DNA from: Octopus sinensis
Taxonomy: Eukaryota
Direction: 5' to 3'
DNA: 64,000 nt
Assembly (NCBI RefSeq): GCF_006345805.1
Contig: NC_043006.1
Location: 81,096,001-81,160,000, forward strand
Part shown: positions 9,704 to 62,755 of the stretch, piece after piece
Position numbering within the stretch: the first letter of the stretch is position 1
Layout of the letters: each line of letters starts with the position of its first letter
The notes under the pieces: model-generated
What the model saw: the letters and a program-made list of their open reading frames with translations, nothing else
What the model was told of the DNA's origin: nothing
Database searches by the model: none
Position numbers and translations under genes: made by a program

Positions 9704-9725
9704 ATATATAATATATATATATATA

Positions 9726-16183: not shown

Positions 16184-16623
16184 TTGACAAGATTAGTAAA
16201 TATAAATTTGACAAGATTAGTAAATATAAAGAAATTTGACAAGATTAGTAAATATAAAGACCTGCTAATGGAAATTGAAAAAATGTGGCATCTCAAGGCG
16301 ACTACAGTACTAGTGATTGTAGGATATCTAGGAATGATAAAAAGGGCACTGAAACCTATTTGAAAATGATTCCAGGCTTACCATCCCTACAGAAAGTGCA
16401 AAAAATCGTATTAACTGGAACGGCTCATGTACTGAGAAGAGCACTATCGCTGTGAAAATAACATCCATCCATGAATTTATTTATTTATTAATTTTTAAAT
16501 ACATATTTCATCTGTGAATTTGCGCATATAATCTGGGAATGCATACAATGCCCTTCTCTGCCCTAGGTGTATGGAAAACACTCGGCGAGAAACGGAAGAA
16601 AATTTGAAGAAAGAAGAAAAAAC
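16183..16623 (+). mobile_element. 3' end of an R4/Dong-like non-LTR retrotransposon (subfamily B)
   Basis: FDKISKYKDLLMEIEKMWHLKATTVLVIVG...QKIVLTGTAHVLRRALSL*, homologous to the C-terminus of ORF 18862-19215; followed by a 3' UTR and flanked by (TAA)n. Confidence 0.85.
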
Positions 16624-16658
<35 letters not shown>

Positions 16659-16659
<1 letters not shown>

Positions 16660-19569: not shown

Positions 19570-21950
19570 GAGAAAAGAGTGAGAAATACCAGGCACTGCG
19601 GGACGAGTTAGGAAAGTTATGGAGCATGACGAAAATAATGGTGATACCGGTGGTAATTAGAACATTAGGAGAAGTTTCCAAGAGCTTGGGAAGAATATTG
19701 GAGCTGTTGTCAGGCTCGGACTGATCCAGAAGATAGCATTGTTGGGTACAGCTAGCATTCTAAGGAGAGTATCGTCTCTTGAGTTAGTTAGTTAGTTAGT
19801 TAGTTAATTTTTTGGCTCAAAAAGCAAAAAAGCAAGGCCATGTAGGGGGACATGGAGTTATGTACAGGGCGGTGTTCATGTAAAGAGTTCAGGCCACTTG
19901 TGGTCAAGGGAGACTTTGAACAGAGCGGTCATCGGCATCTTCACCATCTCGTCCGGCAGCTTCTTCCACGGATCCGCAACCCGGACGGAGAAAGCCCCTC
20001 TCCTTTGATTGAGATGAAATCGTCGCAGATAGAGCTTTTTGGAATGACCCCGCAGGCGACGCTCTGGAGCAGGTGTGAAGAACAGCTCCTTCGAGAGGTT
20101 ACACTTTCCGCTTATGATGTGAGCAAGAATGAGATCACCACGGCGTCATCGTTTTTCTAGAGAATAAAGGTCGAGCGTCTTCAGCCTTTCTTCATAAGAC
20201 AAATTCTTGAGACCAAGAACCATGCGGGTAGCCAGCTTCTGGACTCTTTCGAGATGCTGTATGTCTTTGAGGAGATAAGGAGAAGAGGCCTGAATCCCGT
20301 ACTCCAATATGGGTCTCACCAGCGTGACATAGAGATGGTAGGAATATGGCTGCTGTGAGCATTCCGAATGATCGTCGAATCAAGAACAGAACTCCGCGTG
20401 CTTTGTTGGCAGCATGGACGCACTGGGCCGAAGGCGAAAAGGAGGAATCCACCAAGATACCCAGGTCCTTTACCTGATCGGTCCTCTCCAGCAGCAGACG
20501 ACCCGACTCGAAATCAAGTTGAGTTGCAGGAGGAGAGCCAACAGGCAGATGACAGCACTTTGACACGTTTAGACACAGGTCCCGTTCGTTAGACCATCTC
20601 TAAATTTGGTGGAGGCATCGACGAAGATCCTCTATATCACCGCGAGGAGCGACCAGTTTGACATCGTCGGTAAATAGAAGGATGTGTTGCGTGAGGTCGT
20701 CGGGCAAGTCATTTATGAAGACTAAGAACAATAAGGGCCCAAGCACTGAACCTTGAGGCACGCCACTGCTCGCACTGGAGACGTCGGACCGCGAACCATT
20801 AACTTGGACTTGGAAGGAGCGATCTGAGAGGAAGGCACCAACCCATCGTAAAATATCCGGATGGAAACTATATGCTTGAAGCTTGACAAGTAATAGGCGG
20901 TGGTTTACCGAGTCAAAAGCTTTGGCAAAGTCCAATAAAACGATGTCAACAGCATCACTATCATCGAGGATGCGCGTCACCAATTCCTCCATTACCAGTA
21001 AGTTGGTCAAGCATGATCTCTTCGGCACGAAGCCGTGTTGGGAATCAGAGATAGAGGCTGTGTTTTGGAGGTGGAGCATCATACTTTTCTTAAGGATGGT
21101 TTCGAACATCTTGCTGATTATTGATGTAAGGGAAACCGGTCGGTAGTTAAGCGGATCTTCGCGGTTCCCTTTCTTGAAAATTGGGCAGATTATCGCTGTT
21201 CTCCAGTCCGCAGGTATAACACCCGTCGCCAATGACATATTGAATAGACGTGTTAAGGGCTCGCAGATGACCGGAGCCAACGCTTTGATAACCCGTGGGT
21301 GTATGCCGTCAGGGGCGTGACCCTTGTTGACATCGAGTCCTTGAATAACGCGTTCGACTTCGGCCCGGGTGATGACCAATTGAAGCATTGGAGGTACCGA
21401 TCTATCAAATGGAGGGGGTTCACGACCATCATCTTGTTTGAAAATAGTTGGAAAAGCCTCGGCAAATAATTGACTCTGTTGATAAGGGTCCTCAATCGAT
21501 ACGCCTGTTGAGTCTACCAACGTTGCAATTTGGTTGTTCAAGCGGGAATTCCGTTGGACATGGGCAAAGAAGGTTTTTGGATTGCTACTGGCGTTTGCTG
21601 CGATTCTGTATTCATATCTGAAGCGTTCTTCCTTTTCAATTTTCACGGCTCGGTCTCGTTGAGTTTTGTATACCTCAAAAGCTGTAGTCGAATCCAGATT
21701 TTTGAATTCAGCCCAAGCAATGTCTCTGAGTCGAAGTTCTCGTTTAACCTTCTTCGTCACCCAGGGCTTGTGTTTCTTCTTCTTGGGAAGCCCAACGGTA
21801 ACTGCTTGGTCAGTCAACCAGATTACATATGCTTTGAGGGACGACCATAGTTAGAGAAGAAGGCACTACTTGAAACCTTTGGTGATTTGTTATCGCCTGC
21901 TTTCAAGTAAAGAACAACCGCAAATAGAACAGCGAGAAACAAAACAATAA
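19570..21950 (+). mobile_element. 3' end of a third R4/Dong-like element (subfamily C), interrupted by a CR1-like LINE
   Basis: EKSEKYQALRDELGKLW...VIPVVI...IQKIALLGTASILRRV at 19571-19782; the 3' UTR appears to resume at ~21853-21950 and runs into (TAA)n. Confidence 0.7.
19783..21852 (-). mobile_element. CR1-group LINE, 5'-truncated (RT domain through 3' end)
   Basis: ORF 21817-20600: KPWVT, PDGIHPRVIK, NYRPVSLTS, QHGFVPKRSCLTNL, LDFAKAFDSV, GVPQGSVLGPLLF, FTDD. Frameshifted continuation KDLGILVD, FSVRVADPW.KLP; 3' (TAAC)n tail at 19783-19805. Confidence 0.95.
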
Positions 21951-34233: not shown

Positions 34234-34521
34234 CTATATATATATAATATATATATATATATAAGTTTAACAATTAAGGATAATCTCTTAATAAGGGATC
34301 TAACAAGAAATTATCGGGTAGCTAGCGTGAAAACCTCAATAAAAGAAAAGAATTCGAAAATATTTTTTTCTTTTGAACAAATTAATTATATCTATATTGT
34401 ATAGAGGGCATTATTACACATAAAATGCCTCACACTAGGAGGGACAAAGTCATTACTACCAAAATTATACTAATCATACCCAAATTGCATTTTTCAAAGC
34501 AAGACATTTAAAAATGAATTT

Positions 34522-34579
34522 AGTTCTGTATCACCGTGATTTCACATTCAACTTACGTCTAATGATCGTCAGCAGAACT
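34522..34579 (-). ncRNA. type I hammerhead ribozyme
   Basis: Reverse complement of the motif at 35066-35123. Confidence 0.8.
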
Positions 34580-35065
34580 GATTCTGAACACATCATAAAT
34601 AAACTACCAACCTTACGTAGCGAAGACGAACAGACAACGCTCACTCCGGCCAAGCACATGGAATGTTTATAAATCATATATCCGGTAAATGGCGGATGAG
34701 TAGTATAATTTTGGTAGTAATGACTTTGTCCCTCTAGTGTGAGGCATTTATGTGTAATAATGCCTCTATACAATATAGATATAATTAATTTGTTCAAAAG
34801 AAAAAAATTATTTTCGAATTCTTTTCTTTTATGAGGTTTTCACGCTAGCTACCCGTAATTTCTTGTTAAGATCCCTTATTAAGAGATATCCTTAATTGTT
34901 AAACTATTCCGAAATATTTTCATTACCCGACATGCAGTTCGTAAAAAGCCCGCCATTTACCGGATATATGATTTATAAACATTCCATGTGCTTGGCCGGA
35001 GTGAGCAGTTGTCTGTTCGTCTTCGCTACGTAAGGTTGGTAGTTTATTATGATGTGTTCAGAATC

Positions 35066-35123
35066 AGTTCTGCTGACGATCATTAGACGTAAGTTGAATG
35101 TGAAATCACGGTGATACAGAACT
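35066..35123 (+). ncRNA. type I hammerhead ribozyme
   Basis: Stem I AGTTCTG/CAGAACT (7 bp), core CTGACGA, stem II CATT.GAC-GTAA-GTT.AATG, GAAA, stem III TCAC-G-GTGA, UH = TA (predicted cleavage after 35116). Confidence 0.8.
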
Positions 35124-35316
35124 AAATTCATTTTTTAAATGTCTTGCTTTGAAAAACTGCATTTGGGTATGATTAGTATAATTTTGGTAGTATGACTTTG
35201 TCCCTCCTAGTGTGAGGCATTTATGTGTAATAATGCCATCTATACAATATATATATTATATATATTAATATATAATATATATATATATATATTATATATA
35301 AATATATAATATATAT

Positions 35317-38300
35317 ATAAGTAAGGAAAATTTTTTAAAAATGGCAGATGCTCAAATGAAAGAAAATTGTAATAAAATGAGAAAATGAATAAAATATATA
35401 AATATATATTTATTCAACCGGTTTTCGTCATTGTATGACTTGTCAAGAATATTTATGTTTTAAGAAGTTATTTTAACAATTAGAAATGGGAAAAAAAGAA
35501 AATTGCATTGTTTTTGTAAAGAATAATGATAAAAATGTACAAAAATAAAAAATAAGTTCTCCGATACATTGTGAGTTCGTTGTATATCTTGAGTTTTATG
35601 GTTGTTTACCAAAAAATTACCTTGAGGTGTTAAGATCCAAAGGGATTAAGAGCATGTGATGTGTTGTGTTGTTAAATTCAGCATGTTGCAGGACAGGAAG
35701 TAGTAGTAATTGTGGTCCTGTTCTTCAGTTCCTGTGTTGTGGGTAAGGGGAGACAACTCTTTTGAGTTCTTCAATAAAACCCAAATTTAAAACTATATTT
35801 TAGCTTCATTTGCATTATCTTTTTTATATAATGCTTGTTAACTTAACTTTCAGATTTAACACTTTTATATATTATTTTCTAATAATATAAATCTGCATAG
35901 ACAATTGCATTTCAAATTGTCAATCATTTATATAAAAATGATAGTAATAACAACAATAGTAAAAATGATATTTAAAGAATGTAAGTTTAGCTTGAAGTGA
36001 TGAATGCAATGGTATCTTTATATATGTGTGTTAGTCCATCCATGAAGAGTGAGGTAGAGAAAGGAAGTTGATCAACGAGGAGTTTGCATATTAAGTTTGT
36101 GTTTGGAATTTTTCAATAAAGAGATTCTCCTTGTTAATTCTCTCTGTGTGGTGATCCCGTCTTTACATTGGTAGAAGGGAATATATAGAATTTGGGGTTT
36201 AAGTCTTTAGCACATGAGTCTATGTGGTCACTCAGTGGAATTTGTCGGTATTCCGGGAGATTTATTTGTTCTTTATGCACCGTTACTCGTTTACGTAACG
36301 GGAGACTCGTTTGTCCAACATAATTATGTTGGCAACCAGCGCATGTGAGAGCGTAGAAAAGGTTCTCGGAAGCAAAACCAAGGTAAAATCCAATTTCAGT
36401 AAGGAAGAATGGGAAAACCTACGTGACATACAACTGGATAAAACCTCACCATCAAAGAAGCGGACAAAGGGAGTGCTGTGGCTTATGGACACGGAATTTT
36501 ATAAACACCTAGTGTTCTCCATGCTTAACAATAACATTTTCTATGAGGTTATTAACAACTACAAACAGCAAAAAAACAATCAGAAACCTCACCACACTCA
36601 TACGCCAACACGGTCAGGGACTCACAGAAAAAGAAAGGGATTATATCATCATTTTCAAATGCAAGCCCAGCCTTTTTTATGGCATTCCTAAAATCCATAA
36701 AAAAACAATACATCACCGAAGCCTGCAAACTCTCCACTGACATCCACATCAACATCAAAGCACCGGAGGACCTAAAACTAAGGCCCATCGTGGTGGTACC
36801 TCCTGTGAACACACCGCCTGAGTAACTTCCTAGACATCCTTTTGAAACCTTTCCTTACCCCACATCAAAAGTTTCATTAGGGATGATCTGGACATGCTCA
36901 AACACCTCCGAAAAACAGTTAACGAGGAGGCACTCCTGGTATCCTTGTGATGTCATCAACCTCTACACCAACATTCCACACGAGTATGGTATAGAGGCAT
37001 TGACTTCTGGCTAGAAAAAACACCCAGAGACATTCCTGACCGCCAATAACAAGTCTTTATTACAGAATCTCTTAAGTTCATTCTGACAAACAATTTTTTC
37101 TCTTCGACGACACACACTACCGTCAAAAATGTGGCATTGCGATGGGTACCAAGGCTGCACCAGTCCTTGCGAACCTCATAATGGGTTACTTCGAACTGTC
37201 ACTCTATGAAATATCAAGCCAGAAATTTGGACATGTTTTCACACCTACCTAATGGAAAACTGGGAAAAGGTATTTAGATGATTGTTTCATCATATGGAAA
37301 GAACCTTATGAAAAACTCCTGGAATTCAAAACCATACTAAACAACATACATCCCAACATCCAATTCACTATGGAATTAAGCAAACATCATCTCCCATTCC
37401 TTGATCTCCTAATTATAAAAACACCTAAGAACCAAATCATAACAGACATCTACCACAAACCTACAGACTCACAACAATACCTCCTCTTTAGTTCATGCCG
37501 CCCAAAAAACACCAAGACAAATATCCCTTTCAATTTAGCTAAAAAGGGTATGCACCATTGTCTCGGATCCAAAAACACGAGAGAAATACGCCTTCAAGAC
37601 CTCAAAAAAACACTATTACAACGTCAATATCCCTCCACCCTTATAGAGTATGGAATAAAACGCGCCAAAGAACTAGACAACACTACACTGAAACCACCCA
37701 ACCTAACACCACACACAACCTCAAAATACTTCCATACATTTCACCACAACCCCAAAAATATCGAAGCATACACCACAATCATACAAAACCTCAGTCTACT
37801 GTCAACAGACCCAAAAATGAAAAGCATTATAAATACACACAAAATCCTCAAATGCAAAAGGCAACACAAATCTTTAAAAAAACTCTTGACAAATGCCAAA
37901 CTTCACACACCACATCCAACCCCAACAGTAAAAAAATGTGCACGCTCAAACTGTGGTACCTGCCCCTTTCTACTTGAAGGCTCTGAATTTACCTTCAAAC
38001 AAGGTACGAAGTTTAAAATCCAAGACTAACTTCTCCTGTTCCTCCGAGAACCTTATCTACGCTCTCACATGCGCTGGTTGCCAACATAATTATGTTGGAC
38101 AAACGAGTCTCCCGTTACGTAAACGAGTAACGGTGCATAAAGAACAAATAAATCTCCGGAATACCGACAAATTCACTGAGTGACCACTTAGACTCATGTG
38201 CTAAAGACTTAACCCCAAATTCTATATATTCCCCTTCTACCAATGTAAAGACGGGATCACCACACAGGAGAGAATTAACAAGGAGAATCTCGTTATTGAA

Positions 38301-39140
38301 AAATTCCAAACACAACTTAATATGCAAACTCCTCGTTGATCAAACTTCTTTCTCTACCTCACTCTTCATGGAGGACTAACACAAATATATAAAGATACCA
38401 TGCATTCATCACTTCAAGCTAAAACTTATATTCTTTAATATCATTTTTACTATTGTTGTTATTACTATCATTTTTATTATAAATGATATGACAATTTGAA
38501 ATGCAATTGTCTATGCAGATTTATATTATTAGAAAATAATATAATAAAGTGTTAAAATCTGAAAGTTAAGTTAACAAGCAATTATATAAAAAAGATAATG
38601 CAAATGAAGCTAAAATGATAGTTTTATAATTTGGGTTTTATTGAAGAACTCAAAAGAGTTGTCTCCCTTACCCACAACACAGGAACTGAAGAACCAGGAC
38701 CACAATTACTACTACTTCCTGTCCTGCAACATGCTGAATTTAACAACACAACACATCACATGCTCTTAATCCCTTTGGATCTTAACACCTCAAGGTAATT
38801 TTTTGGTAAAACACCATAAAACTCAAGATACACAACGAACACACAATGTATCGGAGAACTTATTTTTTAATTTTGTACATTTTATCATTATTCTTTACAA
38901 AAAACAATGCAATTTTCTTTTTTCCCATTTCTAATTGTTAAAATAACTTCTTAAAACATAAATATTCTGACAAGTCATACAATGACGAAAACCGGTTGAA
39001 TAAATATATAGTTTATATATTTATCATTTTCTCAATTTATTAAAATTTTCTTTCATTTGAGCATTCTGCATTTAAAAAAAAATTTTCCTTACTTATCATT
39101 TCTCCACGTGCGGTCAACACAACCCACCATTTATTGATCT
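35317..39140 (+). mobile_element. Penelope-like element (Neptune-like), 5'-truncated, with ~1.05-kb 5' inverted repeat
   Basis: Frameshifted ORF ~36370-38340: IKEADKGSAV, FYGIPKIHK, LRPIV, DVINLYTNIPH, GIAMGTKAAP, RYLDDCF, LPFLDL, YHKPTD, CARSNCGTC linker, NLIYALTCAGC..YVGQT..LRKRVTVH (GIY-YIG). 35317-36370 is the reverse complement of 38043-39096. Confidence 0.95.
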
Positions 39141-39630
39141 ATATATATATATATATATTATATGTATGTATGTATATATATATATTATATATATATACAT
39201 ACATACATACATACATATAATATATATATATATATATGAGAATGAATGTTTTTATATATAATGAACGTGAAATACAGGAGGGACGAACACGGAACACAGA
39301 CAAATCATTCGAAGCCTCAATCTTCAGTCAGACACCGAATCATCATAGCAAATTTCGGCTGTTCAATTCTGATATTTGCTCCAACTCGGCCAGCCCCAAG
39401 AAAAAAAAACTAAGCTGTAAGCATTAGATTTCTTGTAGAAGACAGGAATGTGAACGCACAAGACGGATGTGAATACAAGAGACGAAAACGAATTGAAAAC
39501 AGTAATGAATAAACAAAATATATATAACGGTGGTTGTCATACGACTTTAGACCAAATGAGGAAAAAACAACAACAAACATAGCTGGCGTAGAAATAATTA
39601 CCGTTTCGGTAGCGGGAAACAATGTTGGTC

Positions 39631-41337
39631 TATTTCTTATTACCCACTAGGGGCCACGAAGAGGGACACATACAAAACATGGGGGACATAAAACAATGCG
39701 ATTAAAATTATGATTAAATGAATGTTAAATGAAAAAGTGATAACATGAAAGCGATGCTAACGGCCCCCTCCGCCAGCATCACTTACCTTTCCGTTTCCTA
39801 TAACGATTCCAAAGTTTTTCACCTCACCTTTCATTTCTCTCTCATATCTCTCTATCATATCATCCTTCATAAATGCTGATAAACAATTTATACGTAGTTC
39901 ATTGCACTTGCTCATCAAAGAGCCCATGAGTTCAAAATCGAATACCGCATAGCTTCCATCCTCATACTCCTGCCATACATCGTCTTCAAAAAGCCTTCTT
40001 GCGTTCTCAGTATCCCCCTTCCCCACAACACATAAAAAGTAGGACTGGGGCTTTTGTATGTTCTGTGTGTCTGTTTTCGTTTTTCTTGTAGGCGGGAGTG
40101 GGTGGGATTGCTGTTTGCGGGGCAGGATGGGTCTCCAAGGGTGTGGGTGGTATTGGGGTGGGTTGGGGCTTCGCACAGTTTTTACTTTTCTTTCTTTTCT
40201 CTTCTTTCTGCCCTCCTCACACTCTTTTTGCATCTCCTCCTCCTCTGTCATTTCCCTTCCGTCTGCTTCTCTTTAATTTCTTCTTCTTTTGGGGCCTCCT
40301 CTTTTGGAGTTTCCTCAACGATTTCCTTTTCTCTTGGTGGGGGAGGGCAGAAGGCTCTTATGTGGCCCCTCAGGCCACACTTGTAACAACGTGGAGCTCT
40401 GCCCTCCACCCACACTCTCATAATCATGTCTCCCAATTTAATTCTCTCCGCCAGGTCCACCAGTACCTCGCTCTCCGCCTGCACGTTCAGCTCCACTATT
40501 ACGCCTCTCCAGCCCTCGGTCTTGACCGAGGCATGGAGAATATCCACTTTCTCCTCGTGGCCGCTGATCACAGCCGTCACAATCCACTCAGCCTCAACGT
40601 TTGGTGGCACTCCCTCCACCCTTACTCGTGTAATCCTTCTATTCAAGTACATTGGTAACAGTGTTACCTTTTCCGACTTCACTGTTCACCGCCATCTTCC
40701 TCGTTGCAGTCTCGCTTTTAAAATGTACCACTACAGTACCGTACTTCGATCCTCGAGTCAGAAAAATGATTTCCTCCTCCGATCTTCTCAGGGCCTCCTC
40801 TATCCATTCCATGTTTATAATTTCTATTTTCTTTCTTCGTTCGCGAACACCTTGTAAATTATGGTCCTTTATTGTACCATTCCTTTCTCTTTGCTGGTGG
40901 TTCCAGTTCCACCTCGCCGCTGTCCTTCCTCATATACCTCTGGAAACCTGGCAATTTTTCTAGGTTTATTTCTTTTTCCTGTTCCGTCTTTCTTTTGCAA
41001 CTCCTGCGTACGTTTTCCTGTTTTTTGTCTCCACATTATTTACATCACCGATTTGCTCGTCTTCAGAGTTCGATGTCTCGACAAGCTCTCAAATATCCAT
41101 TCTTCCTCCGACTCCTCCACTAGGGAGTGGTCATCCATCTCCTCCCGCCTGACAGGCCAAAACGGCCGTCAAACAGAAAGAAAAAGTGTAACGCGCAGAA
41201 ACCAGTGGAACGCGAAACCGCTTAACGCCGTTCAAAATTTCCACAACAACAAAAACAATTCTTTTTGATCTTTTTTACCGAATTTTACGAGCGTAAAAAA
41301 ACACGACCGAACTCAAACTGACGAACAGACAACTGAT
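39631..41337 (-). mobile_element. ORF1-only (gag/zinc-knuckle) non-LTR retroelement, Tx1/L1-like, copy 1
   Basis: Single frameshifted ORF ~41138-39757 with RVWVEGRAPRCYKCGLRGHIRAFCP (CX2CX4HX4C); no EN or RT; 3' end ...GCCCCTAGTGGGTAATAAGAAATA; flanked by target duplications. Confidence 0.85.
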
Positions 41338-41354
41338 CGGGACACATGTTGGTC

Positions 41355-43063
41355 TATTTCTTTATTACCCACTAGGGGCCACAAAGAGGGAACATTACAA
41401 AACATGGGGGACATAAAACAATGCGATTAAAATTATGATTAAATGAATGTTAAAATGAAAAAATGATAACATGAAAGCGATGCTAACGGCCCCCTCCGCC
41501 AGCATCACTTACCTTTCCGTTTCCTCTCACGATTCCAAAGTTTTTCACCTCACCTTTCATTTCTCTCTCATATCTCTCTATCATATCATCCTTCATAAAT
41601 GCTGATAAACAATTTATACGTAGTTCATTGCACTTGCTCATCAAAGAGCCCATGAGTTCAAAATCGAATACCGCATAGCTTCCATCCTCATACTCCTGCC
41701 ATACATCGTCTTCAAAAAGCCTTCTTGCGTTCTCAGTATCCCCCTTCCCCACAACACATAAAAAGTAGGACTGGGGCTTTTGTATGTTCTGTGTGTCTGT
41801 TTTCGTTTTTCTTGTAGGCGGGGAGTGGGTGGGATTGCTGTTTGCGGGAGCAGGATGGGTCTCCAAGGGTGTGGGTGGTATCTGGGTGGGTTGGGGCTTC
41901 GCACAGTTTTTCCTTTTCTTTCCTTTTCTCTTCTTTCTGCCCTCCTCACACTCTTTTTGCATCTCCTCCTCCTCTGTCATTTCCCTTTCCGTGCTTCTCT
42001 TTAATTTCTTCTTCTTTTGGGGCCTCCTCTTTTGGAGTTTCCTCAACGATTTCCTTTTCTCTTGGTGGGGGAGGGCAGAAGGCTCTTATGTTGACCCTCA
42101 GCCACACTTGTAACAACGTGGAGCTCTGCCCTCCACCCACACTCTCATAATCACGTCTCCCAATTTAATGCTCTCCGCCAGGTCCACCAGTACCTCGCTC
42201 TCCGCCTGCACGTTCAGCTCCACTATTACGCCTCTCCAGCCCTCGGTCTTGACCGGGGTATGGAGAATATCTACTTTCTCCTCGTGGCCGCTGATCACAG
42301 CCGCCACATCCAATCAGCCTCCACGTTTGGTGGCACTCCCTCACCCTTACATCGTGTGATCCTTCTATTCAAGTACATAGGTAAAAGTGTTACCCTTTCT
42401 GACTTCACCGCCTTCACCGCCATCCTCCTCGCTGCAGTCTCACTTTTAAAATGCACCACTACAGTACCGTACTTCGATCCTCGAGTCAGGAAATGATTTC
42501 CTCCTCCGATCTTCTCAGGGCCTCCTCTATCCATTCCATGTTTACGATCTCTATTATCTTTCTTTCGTTCACGAACACCCTGTAAATTATGGTCCTCTTA
42601 TTGTACCATTCCTTTCTCTTGCTGGTGGTTCCAGTTCCACCTCGCCGCTGTCCTTCCTCATATACCTCTGGAAACCTGGCAATTTTTCTAGGTTTATTTC
42701 TTTTTTCCTGTTCCGTCTTCTTTTTGCAACTCCTGCGTACGTTTTCCTGTTTTTTCTCCACATTATTTACATCACCGATTTGCTCGTCTTCAGAGTTCGA
42801 TGTCTCCGACAAGCTCTCAAATATCCATTCTTCCTCCGACTCCTCCACTAGGGAGTGGTCATCCATCTCCTCCCGCTGACAGGCCAAAACGGCCGTCAAA
42901 ACAGAAAAAGTGTAACGCGCAGAACCAGTGGAACGCGAAACGCTTTAACGCCGTTCAAAATTTCCACAACAACAACAACAATTCTTTTTGATCTTTTTTA
43001 CCGAATTTTACGAGCGTAAAAAAAACACGACCGAACTCAAACTGACGAACAGACAACTGATCC
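41355..43063 (-). mobile_element. ORF1-only (gag/zinc-knuckle) non-LTR retroelement, copy 2
   Basis: Highly similar to copy 1 with scattered substitutions and different indels; ORF ~42866-41483. Confidence 0.85.
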
Positions 43064-43734
43064 GCGGGAACACATGTTGGTCGAGATACGAGGCCAACAG
43101 AATGGTTTAAGAAGCAGCAGGTCGCAGAGAGAGAGAGAAAGAGAGACAGAGAGAGAGGGAATCAAAGAGGGTGGAAGGCAGGGACAGAATCAGTGACCAA
43201 GAGAAAAGGAGAAAGAAGGGATTAAGGAGGATGGGTGGAAAGAGGGGAGGAGGATGGGAGGAAGAGAGGGGAAGAATCGGAGGGCGCCAAAAAGTTTGGT
43301 GAAGAAGCAATGGCGGGGTAGGAAGACAGTGTGTATAGAAGTCGTGCAGGGTTTAAATTGGACAAACAAACGGGGGGGGGGTGCACATAACGCCGCAATA
43401 ATATAAGAATGAATGTTTTTTTATATATAATGAACGTGAAATACAGGAAGGGACGAACACGGAACACAGACAAATCATTCGAAGCCTTCAATCTTCAGTC
43501 AGACACCGAATCATCATAGCAAATTTCGGCTGTTCAATACATACATCTATATTAATATATATAATATATATATATAGTATATATATTATTGTGTGTGTGT
43601 GTGTGTGGTTTGTTGTGTGTGTGTGTGTGTATATGCATATATGTATGTGTGTGTATATGATCGATACATACAACATCCAATAAATGTGCCCTACTTTCCT
43701 CTATCTACTCATTCGAAACATATATATATATATA

Positions 43735-44748
43735 TAAAAGAGAGGTATATCCAAAATAAACTGGATTTTTGCAATGTTTATTTTATTCACATAATTCTCC
43801 GTGACTACAACATTCATCATCTTCACAATAAGCAATACATCGGTCCAGATGCGTTTTTCCAATTTTCGAAGTAGTGCTAGAACTCTTGCGCGAAGTGATG
43901 GCTCTCAACGCTTCCGCCATTTTTTTTCTTCACCTCTTACACATCTGCAAATTCCCGTAGCACCATCTTTCGTCACCAATGATGACCTTCAAATTAAAGG
44001 TCCGGATGATGAACTTCCAACTGTTCTTTCAGTTCCCGTCAGACATTCAACTCGTGACTATTTTGATCTCTGTGATCCTTCAAGCGACAAGTGAAACATC
44101 CCTAAAGCATGAAAGAAAACACTCGTAAACTTGTGCTTTGCTCATGGTAACATCCTGGTAAGCTGTTTGAAGTTATAACAGCTGTTTCCGACGCGTTTTC
44201 ACCAGCATTAAAATAGAATATCAACAGAAGCATGTTGATTTTCGTTTCAGCATTGCAAAAATCGACAAACAAGAGAGAAAACACTGCAAAAAAACAGACA
44301 CACTACGTGGCAGCAGTACGATCCACCCGACGACGCCGGTTGGAAGATGATGCACGGAGTTTCATCAAGTGGCTTACCTGCGGAACTACGACTGGATTCA
44401 AGCAATAATAAATCTGCTGAACGAGGTATAAACAGTAACTGCACGACAATGTGAGCTATATTTGCCATCACAATATGGCTAACAACTAAGGGTGGGTATT
44501 ACTGTAGCTTGTAGCCCCAGGAGAACATCTCCTTCAGCTGGCTTTAGGCACAATTTCTGTGCCCTTGCAAATACCTTAAGAGCACAGAAAATGTGCCTAA
44601 AGCCAGCTGGAGGAGATGTTCTCCTGGGGCTAGAATCTACAGTAACACCCACCCTTATGTGTTAGCCCTATGAGATGGCAAATATACACCTTACAACTGG
44701 ATTGTCCCACTGAACACTTTTCGGTTAGTTTTGTGTACCCCCTTGTAT
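43735..44748 (-). mobile_element. internally deleted mariner element (same group as 5257-6244)
   Basis: Reverse strand reads KTASETAVILQTAYQDVTMSKAQVYEWFS (clearest in the duplicate at 46711-46962), KVIIGDERWCYG and a C-terminal LDRCIA; degenerate TIRs at both ends. Confidence 0.8.
44457..44686. mobile_element. hairpin (foldback) MITE nested in the mariner
   Basis: ~100-bp near-perfect inverted arms TATATTTGCCATC...TTTCTGTGC / GCACAGAAA...GATGGCAAATATA; duplicate at 47066-47295. Confidence 0.85.
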
Positions 44749-44820
44749 ATATATATATATATAATATATATAATATATATATATATATATTATATATATA
44801 TTATATATATATATATATAT

Positions 44821-44937
44821 ATCACCGTGATCACCGTGACCGACCAGGCTATCAGATGTTGCTACAATCGCTGGTCACAATGCACTTGGCATTGTTTTAG
44901 CCTTCGAATGACGCCACCCCACTGGCAAGCGAGCAGG

Positions 44938-44941
<4 letters not shown>
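44821..44941 (-). mobile_element. 3' fragment of the 13833-type SINE
   Basis: Reverse complement of ~14021-14145; duplicate at ~47430-47550. Confidence 0.85.
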
Positions 44942-44977
<36 letters not shown>

Positions 44978-45586
44978 TAGACAGATAGATAGATATGCAT
45001 GTGTATGTGTGTGTCAGAATAAACACTTGCTGGGCATTATAATGATTATATCATGAGAGATCTATCCAATCAGATTAATTATGAAGCTTATAAATAGAGA
45101 ATAAATAAGAACATAAGAGAAAGGCAGAGAGAGACCAGAGGCCAACACAGACGCTAATGAATATGAGAAAATGTTAACCCATTAGAAATACACATTGCCA
45201 GTAACTTTTCGATTGAAGCCACCTCACAAGGAACTTTCTAATGGTACTCCGATATTCCGAATGGATAGTCAACGCCAATCTGTTAACAATTTCTGACTAA
45301 CAATCATATAAGATAAATCGAAATCATTGACTTCTCTCCCATCAAATTATTCACTTTTCCATTTACTTATTGTAGAGCCACCAATATTCTATACACACAC
45401 ACACGCACACAAACACACACACAAATACACAAACACATGCATACACATATGTATGTTTATATGTGTATACATATATGAGTGTATATATATATATAATATT
45501 AATGTATTAAGCAATTATATATTGCATACATACATATATATATATATATTAATGAATGTACGCAATTATCTATATGCATACATATA

Positions 45587-46413: not shown

Positions 46414-47546
46414 ATTCTCCGTGCTAACATTCATCATCTTCACAATAAGCAATACATCGGTCCAGATGCGTTTTCCACTTTTCGAAGTAGTGCTAGAACT
46501 CTTGCGAAGTGATGGCTCTCAACGCTTCCGCCATTTTTTTTCTTCACCTCTTACACATCTGCAAATTCCGTAGCACCATCTTTCGTCACCAATGATGACC
46601 TTCAAATAAAGGTCCGGATGAACTTCCAACTGTTCTTTCAGTTCCCGTCAGACATTCACTCGTGACTATTTTTGATCTTCTGTGATCCTTCAAGCGACAA
46701 GTGAACATCCCTAAAGCATGAAAGAAAACCACTCGTAAACTTGTGCTTTGCTCATGGTAACATCCTGGTAAGCTGTTTGAAGTATAACAGCTGTTTCCGA
46801 CGCCGTTTTCACCAGCATAAAATAGAATATCACAGAAGCATGTTGATTCTTCGTTTCAGCTATTGCAAAAATCGACAAACAAGAGAGAAACACTGCAAAA
46901 CAAAGACACACTACGTGGCAGTACGATCCCACCCGACGACGCCGGTTGGAAGACTGATGCACGAGAGTTTCATCAAGTGGCTTTTACCTGCGGAACTACG
47001 ACTGGATTCAAGCAATAATAAATCTCTGAACGAGGTATAAACAGTAACTGCACGACAATGTGAGCTATATTTGCCATCACAATATGGCTAACAACTAAGG
47101 GTGGGTATTACTGTAGCTTGTAGCCCCAGGAGAACATCTCCTTCAGCTGGCTTTAGGCACACTTTCTGTGCCCTAGCAAATACCTTAAGAGCACAGAAAA
47201 TGTGCCTAAAGCCAGCTGGAGGAGATGTTCTCCTGGGGCTAGAATCTACAGTAACACCCACCCTTATGTGTTAGCCCTATGAGATGGCAAATATACACCT
47301 TACAACTGGATTGTCCCACTGAACACTTTTCGGTTAGTTTTGTGTACCCCCTTGTATATATATATATATATAATATATATAATATATATATATATATATT
47401 ATATATATATTATATATATATATATATATATCACCGTGATCACCGTGACCGACCAGGCTATCAGATGTTGCTACAATCGCTGGTCACAATGCACTTGGCA
47501 TTGTTTTAGCCTTCGAATGACGCCACCCCACTGGCAAGCGAGCAGG

Positions 47547-47586
<40 letters not shown>

Positions 47587-48266
47587 TAGACAGATAGATA
47601 GATATGCATGTGTATGTGTGTGTCAGAATAAACACTTGCTGGGCATTATAATGATTATATCATGAGAGATCTATCCAATCAGATTAATTATGAAGCTTAT
47701 AAATAGAGAATAAATTAAGAAACATAAGAGAAAGGCAAGAGACCAGAGGCCAACACAGACGCTAATGAATATGAGAAAATGTTAACCCATTAGAAATACA
47801 CATTGCCAGTAACTTTTCGATTGAAGCCACCTCACAAAAGGAACTTTCTAATGGTACTCCGATATTCCGAATTGGATAGTCAACGCCAATCTGTTAACAA
47901 TTTCTGACTAACAATCATATAAGATAAATCGAAATCATTGACTTCTCTCCCATCAAATTATTCACTTTTCCATTTACTTATTGTAGAGCCACCAATATTC
48001 TATACACACACGCACACAAACACACACACAAATACACAAACACATGCATACACATATGTATGTTTATATGTGTATACATATATGAGTGTATATATATATA
48101 TATAATATTAATGTATAAGCAATTATATATATGCATACATACATATATATATATATTAATGAATGTACGCAATGATCTATATGCATACATACATATATAT
48201 AATATAATATATATATATATATTATATGCATGTACATATATATATATATATACATATATTATACAT

Positions 48267-51479: not shown

Positions 51480-54400
51480 TCATGACAAACATCTAACAAG
51501 AATACCGTCGAGTTATTCATGCCTGTAACAAACACTTCAACAATAAACTCAAGTGGATGAAACAGCAACAAAACGATCTCAGCATGGTAAGAATCAAAAC
51601 AAATGCCCAAACATTATCGACGGGAGTGTCATGTCAGAATGCAAACTACCAGAGGATTTCGACGCCAGGACACCGGAAAGCAATACCGCCATCAACAACA
51701 ACAACAACAACAAGAAATACACCTCTGGAATATATGGAATATACAGATGAAATGCATGCTTTAGAGTTACCACCAATTTCGCTACATATAAAAAAATGTC
51801 AGAAAAATTGATTGTCTGAAATTGAAAAAACGTTCTTAAAATTTAGATGGAGGTTAGGACAATACAACAACAACAAACATACAAACATACGATACCAAAA
51901 CAACAACAATAACAATAGCAGTGTTGATGACAACAACAATAGTGGCAATAACAGCAACAACAATGATAACCACAAGATTCCTCACTCAGACAACTATAAC
52001 AACAATAACACAAGCGTAGGAAACAGAAACAACTATTATAACAACAACAGTAACGATGATGATAGCAACAATAACAACAACAACAACAACAACCCACACA
52101 CAGATAATGATAACAACCACATCATCCACACCACTACCAACAACAACACCCACAACAATAACAATAGGCACAACACGAGCACTACCACCAGCAACAACAA
52201 CAACAATGCCAACAACAATAATAATAACAAAAATCACAACGATAATAACACTCTACATTCTGTCTTCTATAAACCTAACAACAATTCTTATGACATGACG
52301 AGGATCTACCCCACAGACTTATACTTTAACAAAAGTGTATGTATCCCACCCAAATTTGACAGTGAAACAGAAGCAAAGATCTCCTTAACTAGAAATAAAC
52401 TCCGACATATCTTAGACAGATACAACAAATCCACTAAAAAACATAGTGTGGAGGGGACCCACCAACTCAGCTCGTCTGTTGACAAAGACCTACAAAAACT
52501 AAATCAGCGGATTAGGAACAAAAAATTATTGTGCCTCTCTACGGACAAATCTGGCAGACTGTCAATAGACAGCTCACAGACATATGTCCAGAACATGCAA
52601 CAACACATCAGCAGCATGAGAGAAGTTACACCACAAGAACATGAAAGAGTGGAAAAACTCCTCAATGCACACATGGAGATATGGTGCAACATACTCTAGT
52701 CTATAAAACGGATGGCACACAATTTCCAAGCATCGAACAACAACATTCCTACACTATATGGGTTACACAAAGACCACAAACCCTACACAAACCCTGTCAT
52801 GGGGCCCCCAACCAGACCAGTCTGCGGAGCGAACATCTCCAGCAGCTATAGACTGTCCTACTTCCTCTCACAGGTATTACGACCTCTCATAGAGATGACT
52901 CCGGATGTCTGTGTGAGTACAGAAGATCTCCTCAGTGAAATCAGTACGTGCAACCACTCCAACGACCTCACAGGTTGTGTAGTGGGTAGTATGGATGTGA
53001 TTTCACTCTACCCATCTATAGACATACATTTTTGTGTAGAGATGCATTCAGGTAATCTGTGAGAGTGAGGTGGAATTCCGTAAGGTCAACACAAGGGAAC
53101 TGGGCCTCCTCCTCAGACTATGCTATGACAGTAATTATTTAGATAACCATGACCTCAGTAGATTCTGCCCCACCAGGTCACAGAAGGGAAAACCACCCAC
53201 CATCACTACAGCAGTGAAGTAAAGCACCACAGAGCGCTGGAGTGGCTGGGCTGCATCGACCCCAAACCCTGAGAACAACAATCAGGTGAAAGAAATGATT
53301 GCATATGCAATAGGGCCAGTGTAAAAACCACCCTGAAGAACCACATAGTAAAGTTTAACAAAAAAACTATACATGCAGGTTCAAGGTGCAGCCACCGGTG
53401 TCGGTGTAGCTAGAGATGTGGCCGGCCTATTCATGACCTGGTAGGACAGAAAACTGAAACAAATGTTAGCAGCACAGTCCACAACTCTTCTACTCCAGAG
53501 TAGATATGTAGAGGACATTAATATCATAGTCAGGACCAACTCTAGTGATAACTAGTGTAGAAACTGAGAAGAACGTAATGGAGAATATCCAGCAAATAGC
53601 TAACTCCATCCCCCAAAGTATCAAGGTAACTATAGATTACCCCACTAAGCACCCCAACAATAAACTCCCTATACTTGATACTGGACTTTGGTTAGAGACT
53701 GTGAACAATAGAGCGCAATTCCCCTACTCCTATTACATGAAACCTATAACTTCAAAATATGTTGTTCACAAGAACTCATCTTTGTTACACAACATGAAAA
53801 TGAACATACTTATAGCAGACTTAGTTAGAATAATGAAGAATGTGTCCACACTATGCGAATCCTATGAAACGAAAAAACATATACAGAACTTCATGCACCA
53901 CATGCAGTTCTCGGGATATGATCAGAAAGATAGGGTTCGAGTATACAGAGGGGCTAGAAAGAAATTAGAAAACATTACACGTAATGATACCAGTGGTTCC
54001 TGTCCTAGATATAGAAACAAAAAATGGAATAGGATACAAAGAACTTGTGACAAAGCAAACAGGGAGAAAACGTGGTATAAAACCGACAAATATCAAGGAG
54101 TGATGTTTGTAGAGGCTACAGCCCATGGAGATCTATCCCGTAGATTTAGAAAAGCTCTGAAGGTGACCAAACTCAACATTAAGATTGTTGAAAAACCAGG
54201 GAACTCCCTCAGATCACAACTATGTAGGACGTACCCCTTTGAGAATACCATATGCACCAATGATAACTACACGGTATATAGGATTAGCCCTGACATTAAC
54301 TGTAGAACTCGAAATGTAGTCTACAACATAAGATGCATAGAGGTTGCTTGTAAAGACATGAACATGACATACATAGGGGAGACATCTAGGAACATTAGGG

Positions 54401-54600
54401 AACGACTAACTGAAGCTCGGAGACAATATGACGACAAAAAAACAGTCCGCCATACTCTACCAACATGCCAAAGACCACCACGGCGGCAACTTGGGTCAAC
54501 TTGACATCCGCATTTTATCCAAGCACCCAAAAGACACAACACTCAGACAAATACGGGAGTACGTACTTATAAAAGAAACTTCCCCAATATGAAATAGGAA
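51480..54600 (+). mobile_element. Penelope-like element (Naiad-like), near full length, decayed
   Basis: EIEKTFLKFRW, STDKSGRL, PTLYGLHKDHK, PPTRPVCGA, GSMDVISLYPSI, QVQGAATG, RYVEDI, LPILD, FSGY, NCRTRNVVYNIRC..YIGETSRNIRERL (GIY-YIG); several stops and frameshifts. Clade assignment is inference. Confidence 0.9.
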
Positions 54601-55332
54601 ATATACATAGTAGATATCATACCCATATACCCAAAGTTTACGCAGCTAGAGTAGAATAGTTAGTGGGCTGTTATGTAGAGAGATGTATGTATGTGTGTGC
54701 GGGGAGTATATATGTGTATATGCATAAGTATGTAAGCATACGGATATGAAAATAAACAGATCAACATAGAGACGGATAGGTACATAGGTTATATGAACAT
54801 ACAAGCACACATGCGCAAATGGAGATTGAAACACATGCCCATATATATACACACACACTTTATTTCACACAAGGACACATACGGAGACACGTGTGCACAC
54901 ATATGGAGATGCACATCCATACATACAAACGTGGTACATAGTTGCAAAACACACACACATACAGACATGCACACAGAAGGAGACAGAGGGCATACACATG
55001 CAACACCGGACGACACACACACATGAATAACAATACACAAACACGGACATGCAAACACATGAATATGCAGAATACATACAGATGCACACACATACAGATA
55101 TACATATGTATACACACACATATATCCAAAGAAAAACGATTTATTCACACAAACGTGAAAAGTTCCTGCGGTTTTATCGATCGCATTCTCACCTGGAATC
55201 GATTTTTGCAATTTTATGAAGACTTATGCACGCCCAGATACCGTCGGTATTTACATATCAAATTTGAGCGCAATCGGATGGCGAATGCCCTAGATCCTAG
55301 AAGACACACACACGGACAGGAATAATATATAC

Positions 55333-55382
<50 letters not shown>

Positions 55383-55390
55383 GCAAGGAG

Positions 55391-55719
55391 CGTGGAAGGT
55401 GTTTATAAGCCATTTAAGAAACACACAAAAGCCGTTCGATTCACTTCAACATTTAAGTTTAATTTGTCAAAATATTTTCGTCGCTAAAATCCGCGACCTC
55501 TTCACTGACAAAAATCCGTGCTGCACGGACTTTGTTCAGTGAACAGGTCGCGGATTTTAGCGACGAAAATATTTTGACAAATTAAACTTAAATGTTGAAG
55601 TGAATCGAACGGCTTTTGTGTGTTTCTTAAATGGCTTATAAACACCTTCCACGTTGCAATTGTTTTCATTTCAGCACACGATCTCAGATCAAATTACTTG
55701 CTATGCGAGTACATCTCCG

Positions 55720-55722
<3 letters not shown>
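55391..55722. repeat. ~260-bp near-perfect palindrome (inverted PLE pLTR-like fragments) with a hammerhead-like motif in each arm
   Basis: 55391-55521 pairs with 55523-55653 around CCGTGC-T-GCACGG; flanked by (TA)n. Confidence 0.9.
55531..55581 (+). ncRNA. variant minimal hammerhead ribozyme (G3-C8 core)
   Basis: TTTGT(T)CA-GTGAACA-G-GTCGC ggatttta GCGAC-GAAA-ATAT-TT-TGACAAA; mirror copy at 55463-55512 (minus strand) reads GTGAAGA. Confidence 0.55.
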
Positions 55723-55763
<41 letters not shown>

Positions 55764-55799
55764 GTATTATATATATTTATTATATGCATAGATATATTA

Positions 55800-57200
55800 T
55801 TATGTGAAGTCGTCTGTTGAAACAGATAATGATCGCACATGCACTAGGAGCTAGTATAAGAATTACCCTAAAAGGCCACACGTTTAAGTTTAATAATAAA
55901 ATATATGCCCAGGACGAGGGGGCAGCCATAGGCGTTAGTATCGCTGGTGATGTGGCCAACCTTTTCATGGTATGGTGGGACAGAAGGCTTAAAGAACGCC
56001 TAACACAGAACTCCATACTCGTAAACATGTACTCTCGCTATGTTGATGGTATCAACATAGTGGTAAAGGCAGCCCCACAAGAGAGTAATGTTGATATAGT
56101 AATAGAAACTAATACTATGGAGATCATCCAGCAAATAGCTAACTCCATCCACCAGAGTATTAAGGTCACAATAGACTACCCCACTAAACACCCCAACCAG
56201 AGACTACCAGTACTAGACACCGACCTCTGGCTAGAAATTGTGAATAATAAAACCCAAATCCTTCATTCATACTATGCCAAACCTATGGCCTCAAAATACT
56301 TGATCCACCGGAACTCAGCCATTGCGGACAATGCCAAGTTCAATATTTTGATGGCAGACCTCATCAGAATAATGAGAAATGTGTCATGCATGTGCGAGCC
56401 CACAGAGTTAACGAGACACATACAATATTTCATTCACCGCATGCAGTTCTCAGGTTACAGCCATAAAGAAAGGATCAGAGTATACAAAGGAGCCATTAAG
56501 AAATTTGATAATATATTATGTAATGATAGGAATGGTATTTGCCCACTCTATAGGAACAAGTCATGGAATACTATAGAAAGGACAAAAAAGAAAATAGGGA
56601 AGGCCAGCTCTTGGTATGATAGCCATAAATACCAGAGTGTCATGTTCGTTGACACCACCCCTGGAGGTGAACTGGCGTATCGCTTTAGAAGGACCCTAGA
56701 CCAACTTAAGCTAACAATTAAGGTTGTTGAAAAGCCAGGCAACCCTATCAAATCTATAATTGGTAGAACCTATCCTTTTAGTAGAATGCCCTGTACGGAT
56801 AAGTACTATACTGTATGTAGATTTAGCCCACAAACAAACTGTAAAGCCAGAAATGTAGTCTATAGTATTAGATGTATAGAGGGACGGTGCAGTAACAAGA
56901 CAATGACATACGTAGGGGAAACGGCAGAAGCATAGGAGAGCGGGTAAATGAGCATTGGAGACAACTCAAGGAAGGTAAAAGCTCATCGATTCTGTACCAA
57001 CACGCCGAACAAGAACACTGGGGATCAATCAATAACATAGAAATTAAAATATTATCCACCACAAGATCAGATGCAACAATTAGACAAATTACAGAAGCTA
57101 CACACATAAAAAATAACCTAGCCTGAATAGAAAACTAGAATGGAGCACTAACACACACCACAACATCTGACGATAGAGGATCCTGAAAACATAATAAATA
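55800..57200 (+). mobile_element. Penelope-like element (Naiad-like), 5'-truncated, second family
   Basis: ORF 55817-56935: YAQDEGAAIGVSIAGDVANLFMVWWD, RYVDGIN, LPVLD, YYAKPMAS, FSGY, NCKARNVVYSIRC..YVGET; after frameshifts RSIGERVNEH...IRQITEA...LNRKLEW. Confidence 0.92.
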
Positions 57201-62177: not shown

Positions 62178-62755
62178 TATTTTTTTACTACCCACAAGGG
62201 GCTAAACTCAGAGAGGACAAACAAGGACAGACAAACGGATTAAGTCGATTATATCGACCCCAGTAACAGGTACTTATTTAATCGACCCCGAAAGGATGAC
62301 AGGCAAAGTCGACTTCGGCGGAATTTGAACGTAGCGGCAGATGAAATACCTATTCTTTTTTTTACAACCCACAAGGGGCTAAACACAGAGGGGACAAACA
62401 AGGACAGACAAACGGATTAAGTCGATTATATCGACCACAGTAACTGGTACTTATTTAATCGACCCCGAAAGGATGAAAGGCAAAGTCGACTTTGGCGGAA
62501 TTTGAACGTAGCGGCAGATGAAATACCTATTCTTCTTTTTACAACCCACAAGGGGCTAAACACAGAGGGGACAAACACGGACAGACAAACGGATTAAGTC
62601 GATTATATCGACCCCAGTGCGAAACTGGTACTTATTTAATCGACCCCGAAAGGATGAAAGGCAAAGTCGACCTCGGCGGAATTTTAACTCAGAACGTAGC
62701 GGCAGACGAAATACCGCAAAGCATTTCGCCCGGCGCGCTAACGTTTCTGCCAGCT
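62178..62755 (-). mobile_element. SINE (GGCGGCGAGCTGG family) with its 3' ~180 bp present in three tandem copies
   Basis: CCCACAAGGGGCTAAAC...AAAGTCGAC..CGGCGGAATT occurs three times; only the last unit carries the head (62690-62755). Confidence 0.9.

What the first reader, a model, noticed from the sequence alone, without database searches (positions are those of the whole stretch)
39612..43082. Two tandem ORF1-only (gag zinc-knuckle, no RT) retroelements inserted at one ~19-bp target that occurs three times
Seen: GCGGGAA(C)ACATGTTGGTC-like sequence at 39612-39630, 41338-41354 and 43064-43082 brackets two ~1.7-kb minus-strand units. Each has a ~200-bp 5' UTR, one ORF of roughly 460 codons (broken only by indels that differ between copies) with RVWVEGRAPRCYKCGLRGHIRAFCP, an E/K-rich tract and an unrecognised ~90-aa C-terminal domain (SYFLCVVGKGD...VKNFGIV), then a ~125-bp 3' UTR. 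No endonuclease or RT is present. Known: Tx1-clade L1 elements have this ORF1 knuckle context, long TSDs and often sequence-specific targets in other repeats; ORF1-only derivatives (HAL1-type) exist for L1. Inference: a complete, non-autonomous 'half-Tx1' that targets another mobile repeat and re-inserted into its own regenerated target.
Basis: partly seen in the sequence, partly recalled or inferred. Interest (0 to 1): 0.8.

Follow-up and report, generated by a model that had tools for sequence, protein, structure and literature searches.

The report
Half-length LINE homing on other repeats
Two head-to-tail copies of a young 1.7-kb jumping gene that keeps only its RNA-binding protein sit at one exact spot of another repeat, a spot that about half of the full-length copies examined also occupy; it likely borrows its copying enzymes from a full-length relative that has the same tail.

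Summary
The two units belong to a dispersed, young family of ORF1-only non-LTR retroelements: 44 near-full copies among 65 matches, and an unbroken 460-463-aa ORF in 9 of 30 loci. The protein is predicted as RRM + RRM-like + CCHC + a novel C-terminal domain and is under purifying selection. Autonomous ORF1+APE+RT elements (Tx1-like by inference) share the 3' tail and sit in the same head-to-tail arrays. The 19-bp repeat is a true TSD in a 718-bp Penelope-like non-coding repeat: 17 filled loci against 381 exact empty sites. Filled hosts do not cluster on the host tree, and the two window copies fall in different clades, so these are likely independent insertions. Specificity is not strict. Only 19 of 40 copies use this site; others use hammerhead retrozymes or unique DNA, and sister ORF1-only lineages prefer SINE heads or a Helitron-like repeat. 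TSD starts match each lineage's own 3' continuation (46 nt vs 12.8 shuffled), which suggests target choice inherited through RNA-target pairing. Verdict: a HAL1/HeT-A-type element from a Tx1-like lineage, a new variant of a known kind.

The parts
39234..39611 (-). Downstream half of host repeat A (718-bp non-coding, Penelope-like unit), ending in a (TA)n tract
   Evidence: 96-97% identical to empty copies
39612..39630 (-). 3' target-site duplication (19 nt)
39631..41337 (-). ORF1-only element, copy 1 (3' copy in its own orientation); tail shared with autonomous partners
39757..41138 (-). ORF1 of copy 1, frameshifted in the assembly; intact relatives encode 463 aa
40347..40388 (-). CCHC zinc knuckle of copy 1
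41338..41354 (-). Middle copy of the target (17 nt, shortened junction)
41355..43063 (-). ORF1-only element, copy 2 (5' copy); different clade from copy 1
41483..42866 (-). ORF1 of copy 2, frameshifted in the assembly
43064..43082 (-). 5' target-site duplication (19 nt)
43083..43538 (-). Upstream half of host repeat A, 5'-truncated; 43401-43538 repeats 39234-39367 (partial tandem, pLTR-like)

Best explanation
These are two copies, likely inserted independently, of a 1.7-kb non-autonomous LINE that encodes only an ORF1 protein (predicted RNA-binding) and is likely copied in trans by a related endonuclease/reverse-transcriptase element that has the same 3' tail. Shown: dispersed copies with TSDs; unbroken ORFs under purifying selection; autonomous relatives sharing the tail; strong but not exclusive use of one site in repeat A. 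Inferred steps: (1) the RNA is coated by its own ORF1p, and the partner's ORF2p recognises the tail; (2) the partner endonuclease nicks with only loose preference (this lineage's TSDs start with G, mostly GA or GG); (3) the RNA has no poly(A) and runs a few bases into the donor's flank, and these bases pair with the nicked DNA to prime reverse transcription. A donor sitting in a multicopy repeat would therefore send daughters to the same site in other copies of that repeat, and to the regenerated site, giving TSD-separated tandems. My odds: element identity and trans-mobilisation about 0.9; independent insertion into A about 0.75; pairing-based inheritance of the target about 0.5.
For: Copies. 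dN/dS of the RRM-CCHC core is 0.10-0.23 against ORF1-only relatives with core dS above 0.09. Fold: RRM (Z 8.5, rmsd 2.5, 82 aligned to La 1zh5) and tandem-RRM Foldseek hits at E 3e-5. Partner at G000:C1:76.26-76.28 Mb has zf-CCHC, Exo_endo_phos and RVT_1; 34 of the last 37 nt match an autonomous tail. 77 unbroken ORF1 cores are followed by a tail and 3 by APE; the window family lies in a 99%-supported clade of 10 ORF1-only rows plus 3 unlabelled rows, with no autonomous row. Target: 17 filled loci vs 381 empty sites. Filled hosts are scattered on the host tree (10 changes vs 11.1 shuffled); element-host Mantel r 0.24, p 0.08. At L013 a filled unit lies between two empty units. At L028 a host variant appears in both TSD copies. 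Window copies fall in separate clades. At 20 sites outside the multicopy hosts, TSD starts match the own-lineage continuation for 46 nt in total vs 12.8 when shuffled (0 of 20000). Precedent for target-matched 3' ends aiding priming: PMC7265360 (passages).
Against: No RNA ends were seen, so read-through is unproven. The microhomology test is post hoc on hand-picked sites, and two high scores (L165, L070) may be 5'-tag or family homology. Lineage-specific partner endonucleases would give the same pattern. In this window's own lineage the match at unique sites is only 0-2 nt. The host tree has almost no supported branches, so its test is weak. The 4 B-site copies form one clade, and 3 of them sit in a rare host variant (6 of the first 100 listed empty sites), which fits hitchhiking. 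One 5'-truncated copy (L160) keeps downstream host B' but not upstream host. The partner's ORF1 is only about 33-39% identical, and the actual mobilising family is not identified.
Confidence: 0.6

Rival explanations
1. Classic Tx1 targeting: the partner endonuclease itself recognises the A site, and different partner families recognise other repeats. Tandems come from sequential insertion.
For: Many Tx1 families are target-specific, some for other transposons, and tandem SINEU-3 copies sandwich a TSD (PMC4494074, section 14 read). The A-site junctions examined are the same apart from small variants. At least two autonomous ORF1 types exist.
Against: One 92-100% identical family uses A, B, B', C and unique sites that share little beyond G(A/G). 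No other family member or autonomous tail was found at the A site (all 21 hits carry this family's tail).
Confidence: 0.25
2. Hitchhiking: one or a few insertions into the Penelope-like unit were amplified as composites by Penelope machinery.
For: Identical junctions; hosts are 5'-truncated and end in (TA)n; B copies form one clade in a rare host variant; L160 looks like a truncated composite.
Against: Filled A hosts come in two host subtypes that do not follow element haplotypes; filled units neighbour empty units (L003, L013, L017); tandem copies derive from different element clades.
Confidence: 0.1
3. Position-specific insertion at transcription start sites through ORF1 tethering to promoter factors, as for Dictyostelium TRE5-A.
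For: A TATA-like box lies 28-30 nt upstream of the site in hosts B, B' and D and at L019, L047 and the C6 array, and weakly in A. TRE5-A ORF1 binds TFIIIB and has an ORF2-less derivative (PMC3159450, passages).
Against: In 15 newly fetched ORF1-only sites only 2 had TATAWA at -27 to -32 (background 1.6%; SINE sites 0 of 8). The pattern may reflect selection of copies that landed behind a promoter.
Confidence: 0.07
4. The tandem is a local duplication or an assembly artefact.
For: Many homopolymer indels in both copies.
Against: 40 substitutions between the copies, separate clades, and TSD-separated tandems at two other A loci (2 and 4 copies).
Confidence: 0.03

Closest known systems
HAL1 (half-L1) of mammals
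   Same: Non-autonomous, encodes only ORF1p, arose from an L1-group LINE (PMC5753468 and PMC5786205, passages; Bao and Jurka 2010 not held, recalled).
   Different: Here the parent is Tx1-like with an RRM-RRM-CCHC ORF1. There is no poly(A), the tail is a conserved sequence shared with partners, insertion favours particular repeats, and copies form long mixed arrays.
HeT-A of Drosophila (and Ag-Sponge)
   Same: ORF1-only LINE derivative (PMC5786205, passage); head-to-tail arrays with autonomous partners and 5' tags (recalled).
   Different: Jockey or CR1 parentage; HeT-A is telomeric. These arrays are interstitial and carry TSDs.
Tx1L / Tx1-Mar and SINEU-3
   Same: Tx1-clade machinery inserting into another transposon; tandem copies sandwiching a TSD (PMC4494074, passages and section 14).
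   Different: The passenger there is a non-coding SINE; here it encodes a conserved ORF1, and the target differs among sublineages.
TRE5-A.2 of Dictyostelium
   Same: ORF1-retaining, ORF2-deleted element mobilised in trans with a target preference (PMC3159450, passages).
   Different: TRE5-A.2 is near-identical to its partner and targets tRNA genes through TFIIIB. Here ORF1 is about 33-39% identical to partners, and the promoter-distance rule was met at only 2 of 15 unseen sites.

Membership tests
ORF1-only non-autonomous LINE (HAL1/HeT-A type) | Single ORF homologous to LINE ORF1, no ORF2 | tested here: met
   44 near-full 1.7-kb copies with no room for ORF2; ORF is 33% identical to the ORF1 of an APE+RT element
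ORF1-only non-autonomous LINE (HAL1/HeT-A type) | Amplified as a family with ORF1 under purifying selection | tested here: met
   9 of 30 loci unbroken; core dN/dS 0.10-0.23 at core dS above 0.09
ORF1-only non-autonomous LINE (HAL1/HeT-A type) | Ends shared with an autonomous partner | tested here: met
   34 of 37 terminal nt shared; a short 5' motif also shared
ORF1-only non-autonomous LINE (HAL1/HeT-A type) | Trans-mobilisation shown experimentally | not testable with these tools
   needs a retrotransposition assay
HAL1 in the strict sense (derived from vertebrate-type L1) | L1-type ORF1 (Transposase_22) and poly(A) tail | tested here: not met
   No poly(A) at any junction; no PF02994 match among 72 aligned ORF1s; partner RT lies outside the branch holding PF02994-bearing L1s
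Tx1 clade (partner element) | ORF1 with CCHC, ORF2 with APE and RT | tested here: met
Tx1 clade (partner element) | RT groups with named Tx1 references | tested here: inconclusive
   Quick tree: partner RTs sit with invertebrate and fish L1-group RTs, apart from vertebrate L1 (97%); no named Tx1 was in the tree, and reading PF23057/PF23058 rows as Tx1 is recalled
Tx1 clade (partner element) | Target preference (Kojima's criterion: more than 20% of flanks in one repeat) | tested here: met
   19 of 40 ORF1-only copies in repeat A; criterion from PMC4494074 passage
Non-LTR retrozyme (hosts B and B') | Tandem units each with a type I hammerhead | tested here: met
   477-480-bp tandem units; the core and stems I-III are visible, with stem I differing between B and B' (the descriptor scan found B, while B' was read by eye); Rfam gave no hit
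Non-LTR retrozyme (host A) | Type I hammerhead in each unit | tested here: not met
   No canonical core with closing stems on either strand
Non-autonomous Penelope-like element (host A) | Partial tandems, 5' truncation, inverted copies, (TA)n targets | tested here: met
   traits as described in PMC8557442 passages
Non-autonomous Penelope-like element (host A) | Homology to the pLTR of a coding PLE | not tested
   no coding partner was searched for genome-wide
LTR retroelement or proviral gag | LTRs, capsid domain, 4-6-bp TSD | tested here: not met
   No terminal repeats, TSDs of 12-25 nt, RRM-type folds

The most novel reading that the evidence does not exclude
A whole radiation of ORF1-only parasites of a Tx1-like LINE in which the target site is inherited from the donor locus. 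Each lineage picks up a few flank bases at its RNA 3' end, then homes to the same site in other copies of whichever repeat it landed in (Penelope-like unit, retrozyme, SINE head, Helitron, its own kin). Target specificity would thus switch without any change in the endonuclease, while a novel C-terminal ORF1 domain is swapped between lineages.
Probability: 0.35. Interest if true: 0.78.

Novelty: new variant of a known kind. Interest (0 to 1): 0.55.

Why it matters
ORF1-only LINE derivatives are listed for the L1, Jockey and CR1 clades (PMC5786205, passage). My eight searches returned no report of one from Tx1, though Repbase entries and subscription papers were not searchable. This family is young, intact in many copies, diverse (55-100% ORF1 identity) and sits beside its partners. 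That makes two open questions testable: why a trans-mobilised LINE keeps its own ORF1, and how non-LTR elements acquire and switch target sites. It also explains multi-kb interstitial arrays of up to about 10 units that could be mis-annotated as satellites or gene clusters.

Tried and rejected
Small-RNA gene target (snRNA, tRNA, SL): Rfam gave no hit at the site. TSS/TATA rule: suggested by about 7 sites, met in 2 of 15 unseen sites; not a general rule. C-terminal domain identity: AlphaFold gives a confident alpha/beta domain (pLDDT 78), but Foldseek found no hit at E of 0.001 or below and the best Z was 3.8; it remains unassigned, which does not show a new fold. The word-indexed protein search found nothing; the exhaustive search gave 324 unnamed hits, mostly over the core. 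Profile comparison with a PF23057-bearing protein matched only the knuckle. Sequencing runs: no RNA holder is on record; only contigs could be laid, so neither the tandem, the indels nor the RNA ends could be checked. The empty-site joint appears in 6 of 8 runs but cannot be assigned to this locus. The careful RT tree did not finish, so the quick tree was used. Bao and Jurka 2010 could not be read. No supplements were consulted.

Full report
OBSERVATION. The window is G000:C10:81096001-81160000 of a 2.72-Gb genome; its AT-microsatellite-rich make-up suggests a cephalopod (recalled, not tested). Three copies of a 17-19-nt sequence bracket two minus-strand 1.71-kb units. The units differ by 40 substitutions and 31 indels, 21 of these in homopolymers. 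Each carries one frameshifted ORF and no APE or RT.

FAMILY. A DNA search scored 39 of 659 candidates and returned 65 matches; 44 are near-full copies at 92-100% identity on many contigs. Of the 30 loci returned, 9 have an unbroken 460-463-aa ORF. A protein search (92 of 46632 candidates scored) showed sister families down to 55% identity. In the stretches fetched, 77 unbroken ORF1 cores were followed by the family tail, 3 by an endonuclease and 10 could not be labelled. After thinning to 20 rows, the window family lay in a 99%-supported clade of 10 ORF1-only and 3 unlabelled rows, with no autonomous row; one further ORF1-only row lay outside it. This is a long-lived lineage, not a one-off deletion. 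Against P0001, core dN/dS is 0.10-0.23 for ORF1-only relatives with core dS above 0.09; near-identical pairs are noisier at 0-0.6. The C-terminal domain does not track the core: one relative has core dS 0.2 and 19% C-terminal identity, another core dS 1.5 and 69%. This suggests domain swapping.

PROTEIN. Pfam gives only a weak knuckle. AlphaFold on a 72-row alignment gives two alpha/beta domains at residues 82-250, the knuckle, a charged helix and a C-terminal domain. The first domain matches RRMs (Z 8.5, rmsd 2.5, 82 aligned) and the second matches RRM/ACT-type folds. The C-terminal domain folds confidently but has no clear match.

PARTNER. At G000:C1:76.26-76.28 Mb three ORF1-only units lie head-to-tail between autonomous elements with ORF1-CCHC, APE and RT. 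The last 37 nt of the window element match an autonomous tail at 34 positions, and no poly(A) follows. Partner RTs fall outside the vertebrate-L1 branch in a quick tree of 61 rows (58 of the 120 listed homologues plus 3 own); no named Tx1 was available, so the Tx1 label is inferred. An abundant tRNA-type SINE has the same tail.

TARGET. The 19-mer is a single-copy site in a 718-bp non-coding repeat (A) that forms partial tandems and inverted copies and ends in (TA)n, like non-autonomous Penelope-type elements (PMC8557442 passages). It lacks a canonical hammerhead. There are 381 exact empty sites and 21 exact filled junctions at 17 loci, plus the window's variant one; three loci hold tandems of 2, 2 and 4. 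Of 40 near-full copies, 19 are in A, 4 in B and 4 in B' (480-bp hammerhead retrozymes with 1327 and 273 empty sites). Three more sit in junction class C, at or just upstream of an autonomous element, and 10 elsewhere. Sister lineages favour a SINE head, a Helitron-like 1-kb repeat, or the 5' ends of their own kin, forming arrays of up to 9-11 units.

INDEPENDENT INSERTION OR HITCHHIKING. For A, 15 filled and 31 empty hosts were compared. Filled hosts are not clustered (10 changes vs 11.1 shuffled), though the tree is poorly resolved, and element and host haplotypes correlate weakly (r 0.24, p 0.08). At L013 a filled unit lies between two empty ones. The window's two copies lie in different clades, one of them supported at 97/98. 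For B, hitchhiking remains possible (one clade, rare host variant), and L160 may be a moved composite.

MECHANISM. Lineages differ in the bases that follow the conserved tail, and TSD starts match the lineage's own continuation: 46 matched nt over 20 hand-picked sites outside multicopy hosts vs 12.8 on shuffling (0 of 20000). Elements in A also begin with a piece of the B' target, so flank bases do get carried on the RNA. I therefore favour loose nicking plus priming by RNA-target pairing, which makes the target heritable. A target-matched 3' end raises accuracy in SART1 and R1 (PMC7265360 passages). Lineage-specific endonucleases would fit the same data and are the main rival. A TATA-at-minus-29 rule looked striking at first but held in 2 of 15 unseen sites. 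Sequential re-insertion and template jumping both predict the tandem seen here.

KNOWN SYSTEMS AND PAPERS. It works like HAL1 and HeT-A (ORF1-only) and like SINEU-3/Tx1-Mar (tandems in another transposon), but it is not HAL1 in the strict sense. Seen as passages: PMC5753468, PMC5786205, PMC8557442, PMC7265360, PMC3159450, PMC11203168. PMC4494074: passages and section 14. bioRxiv 10.64898/2026.07.22.740005: first of five parts. Bao and Jurka 2010: not held, recalled. Eight searches returned no Tx1-derived ORF1-only family; Repbase was not searchable.

VERDICT. Real; a new variant of a known kind; interest 0.55, higher if inherited targeting is confirmed.

Noticed in passing
window 62180-62688; L140, L158, L204-L223: A 177-184-bp tandem SINE unit ends in the same tail as this LINE family; the abundant tRNA-type SINE likely uses the same partners and often restarts at one fixed internal site after its tail.
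   Followed up: partly
window 34259-35259 and 9719-10368: Empty copies of hammerhead retrozyme B' (direct and inverted), including an unoccupied insertion site near 35003.
   Followed up: partly
window 35400-39100: Penelope-type element with RT and GIY-YIG-like fragments (37253-38379) and inverted repeats; host A lies in a TA tract at its edge.
   Followed up: no
L069, L072, L076, L077, L124 flanks: A 1-kb Helitron-like repeat (TC start, hairpin and CTAG end; class recalled) carries an old ORF1 fragment; different numbers and kinds of family members are stacked at one point in different copies.
   Followed up: partly
G000:C9:478-497 kb; C6:70.544-70.561 Mb; C2:57.14-57.16 Mb; C2:193.35-193.36 Mb: Long interstitial head-to-tail arrays (8-11 tails) of ORF1-only units; the C9 array is mixed and ends in an autonomous element.
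   Followed up: partly
L060, L074, L061, L062: The ORF1 C-terminal domain is exchanged between lineages independently of the RRM-CCHC core; its fold has no clear match.
   Followed up: partly
L202 and L074: One lineage inserts in the head of a second SINE; at L202 this lies just after a U6-like 3' end (recalled, not tested).
   Followed up: no
L122:4819-6222; L125:7390-9673: More distant ORF1-bearing units (about 30-35% identical) in the same arrays, possibly a second origin of ORF1-only elements.
   Followed up: no
window 44417-45493 and 47026-48104: Direct duplication with 2.6-kb spacing, containing a MITE-like hairpin at 44512-44632.
   Followed up: no
window 16608-19212, 20603-21850, 51812-56932: Fragments of other retroelement ORFs (RT-like motifs).
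   Followed up: no
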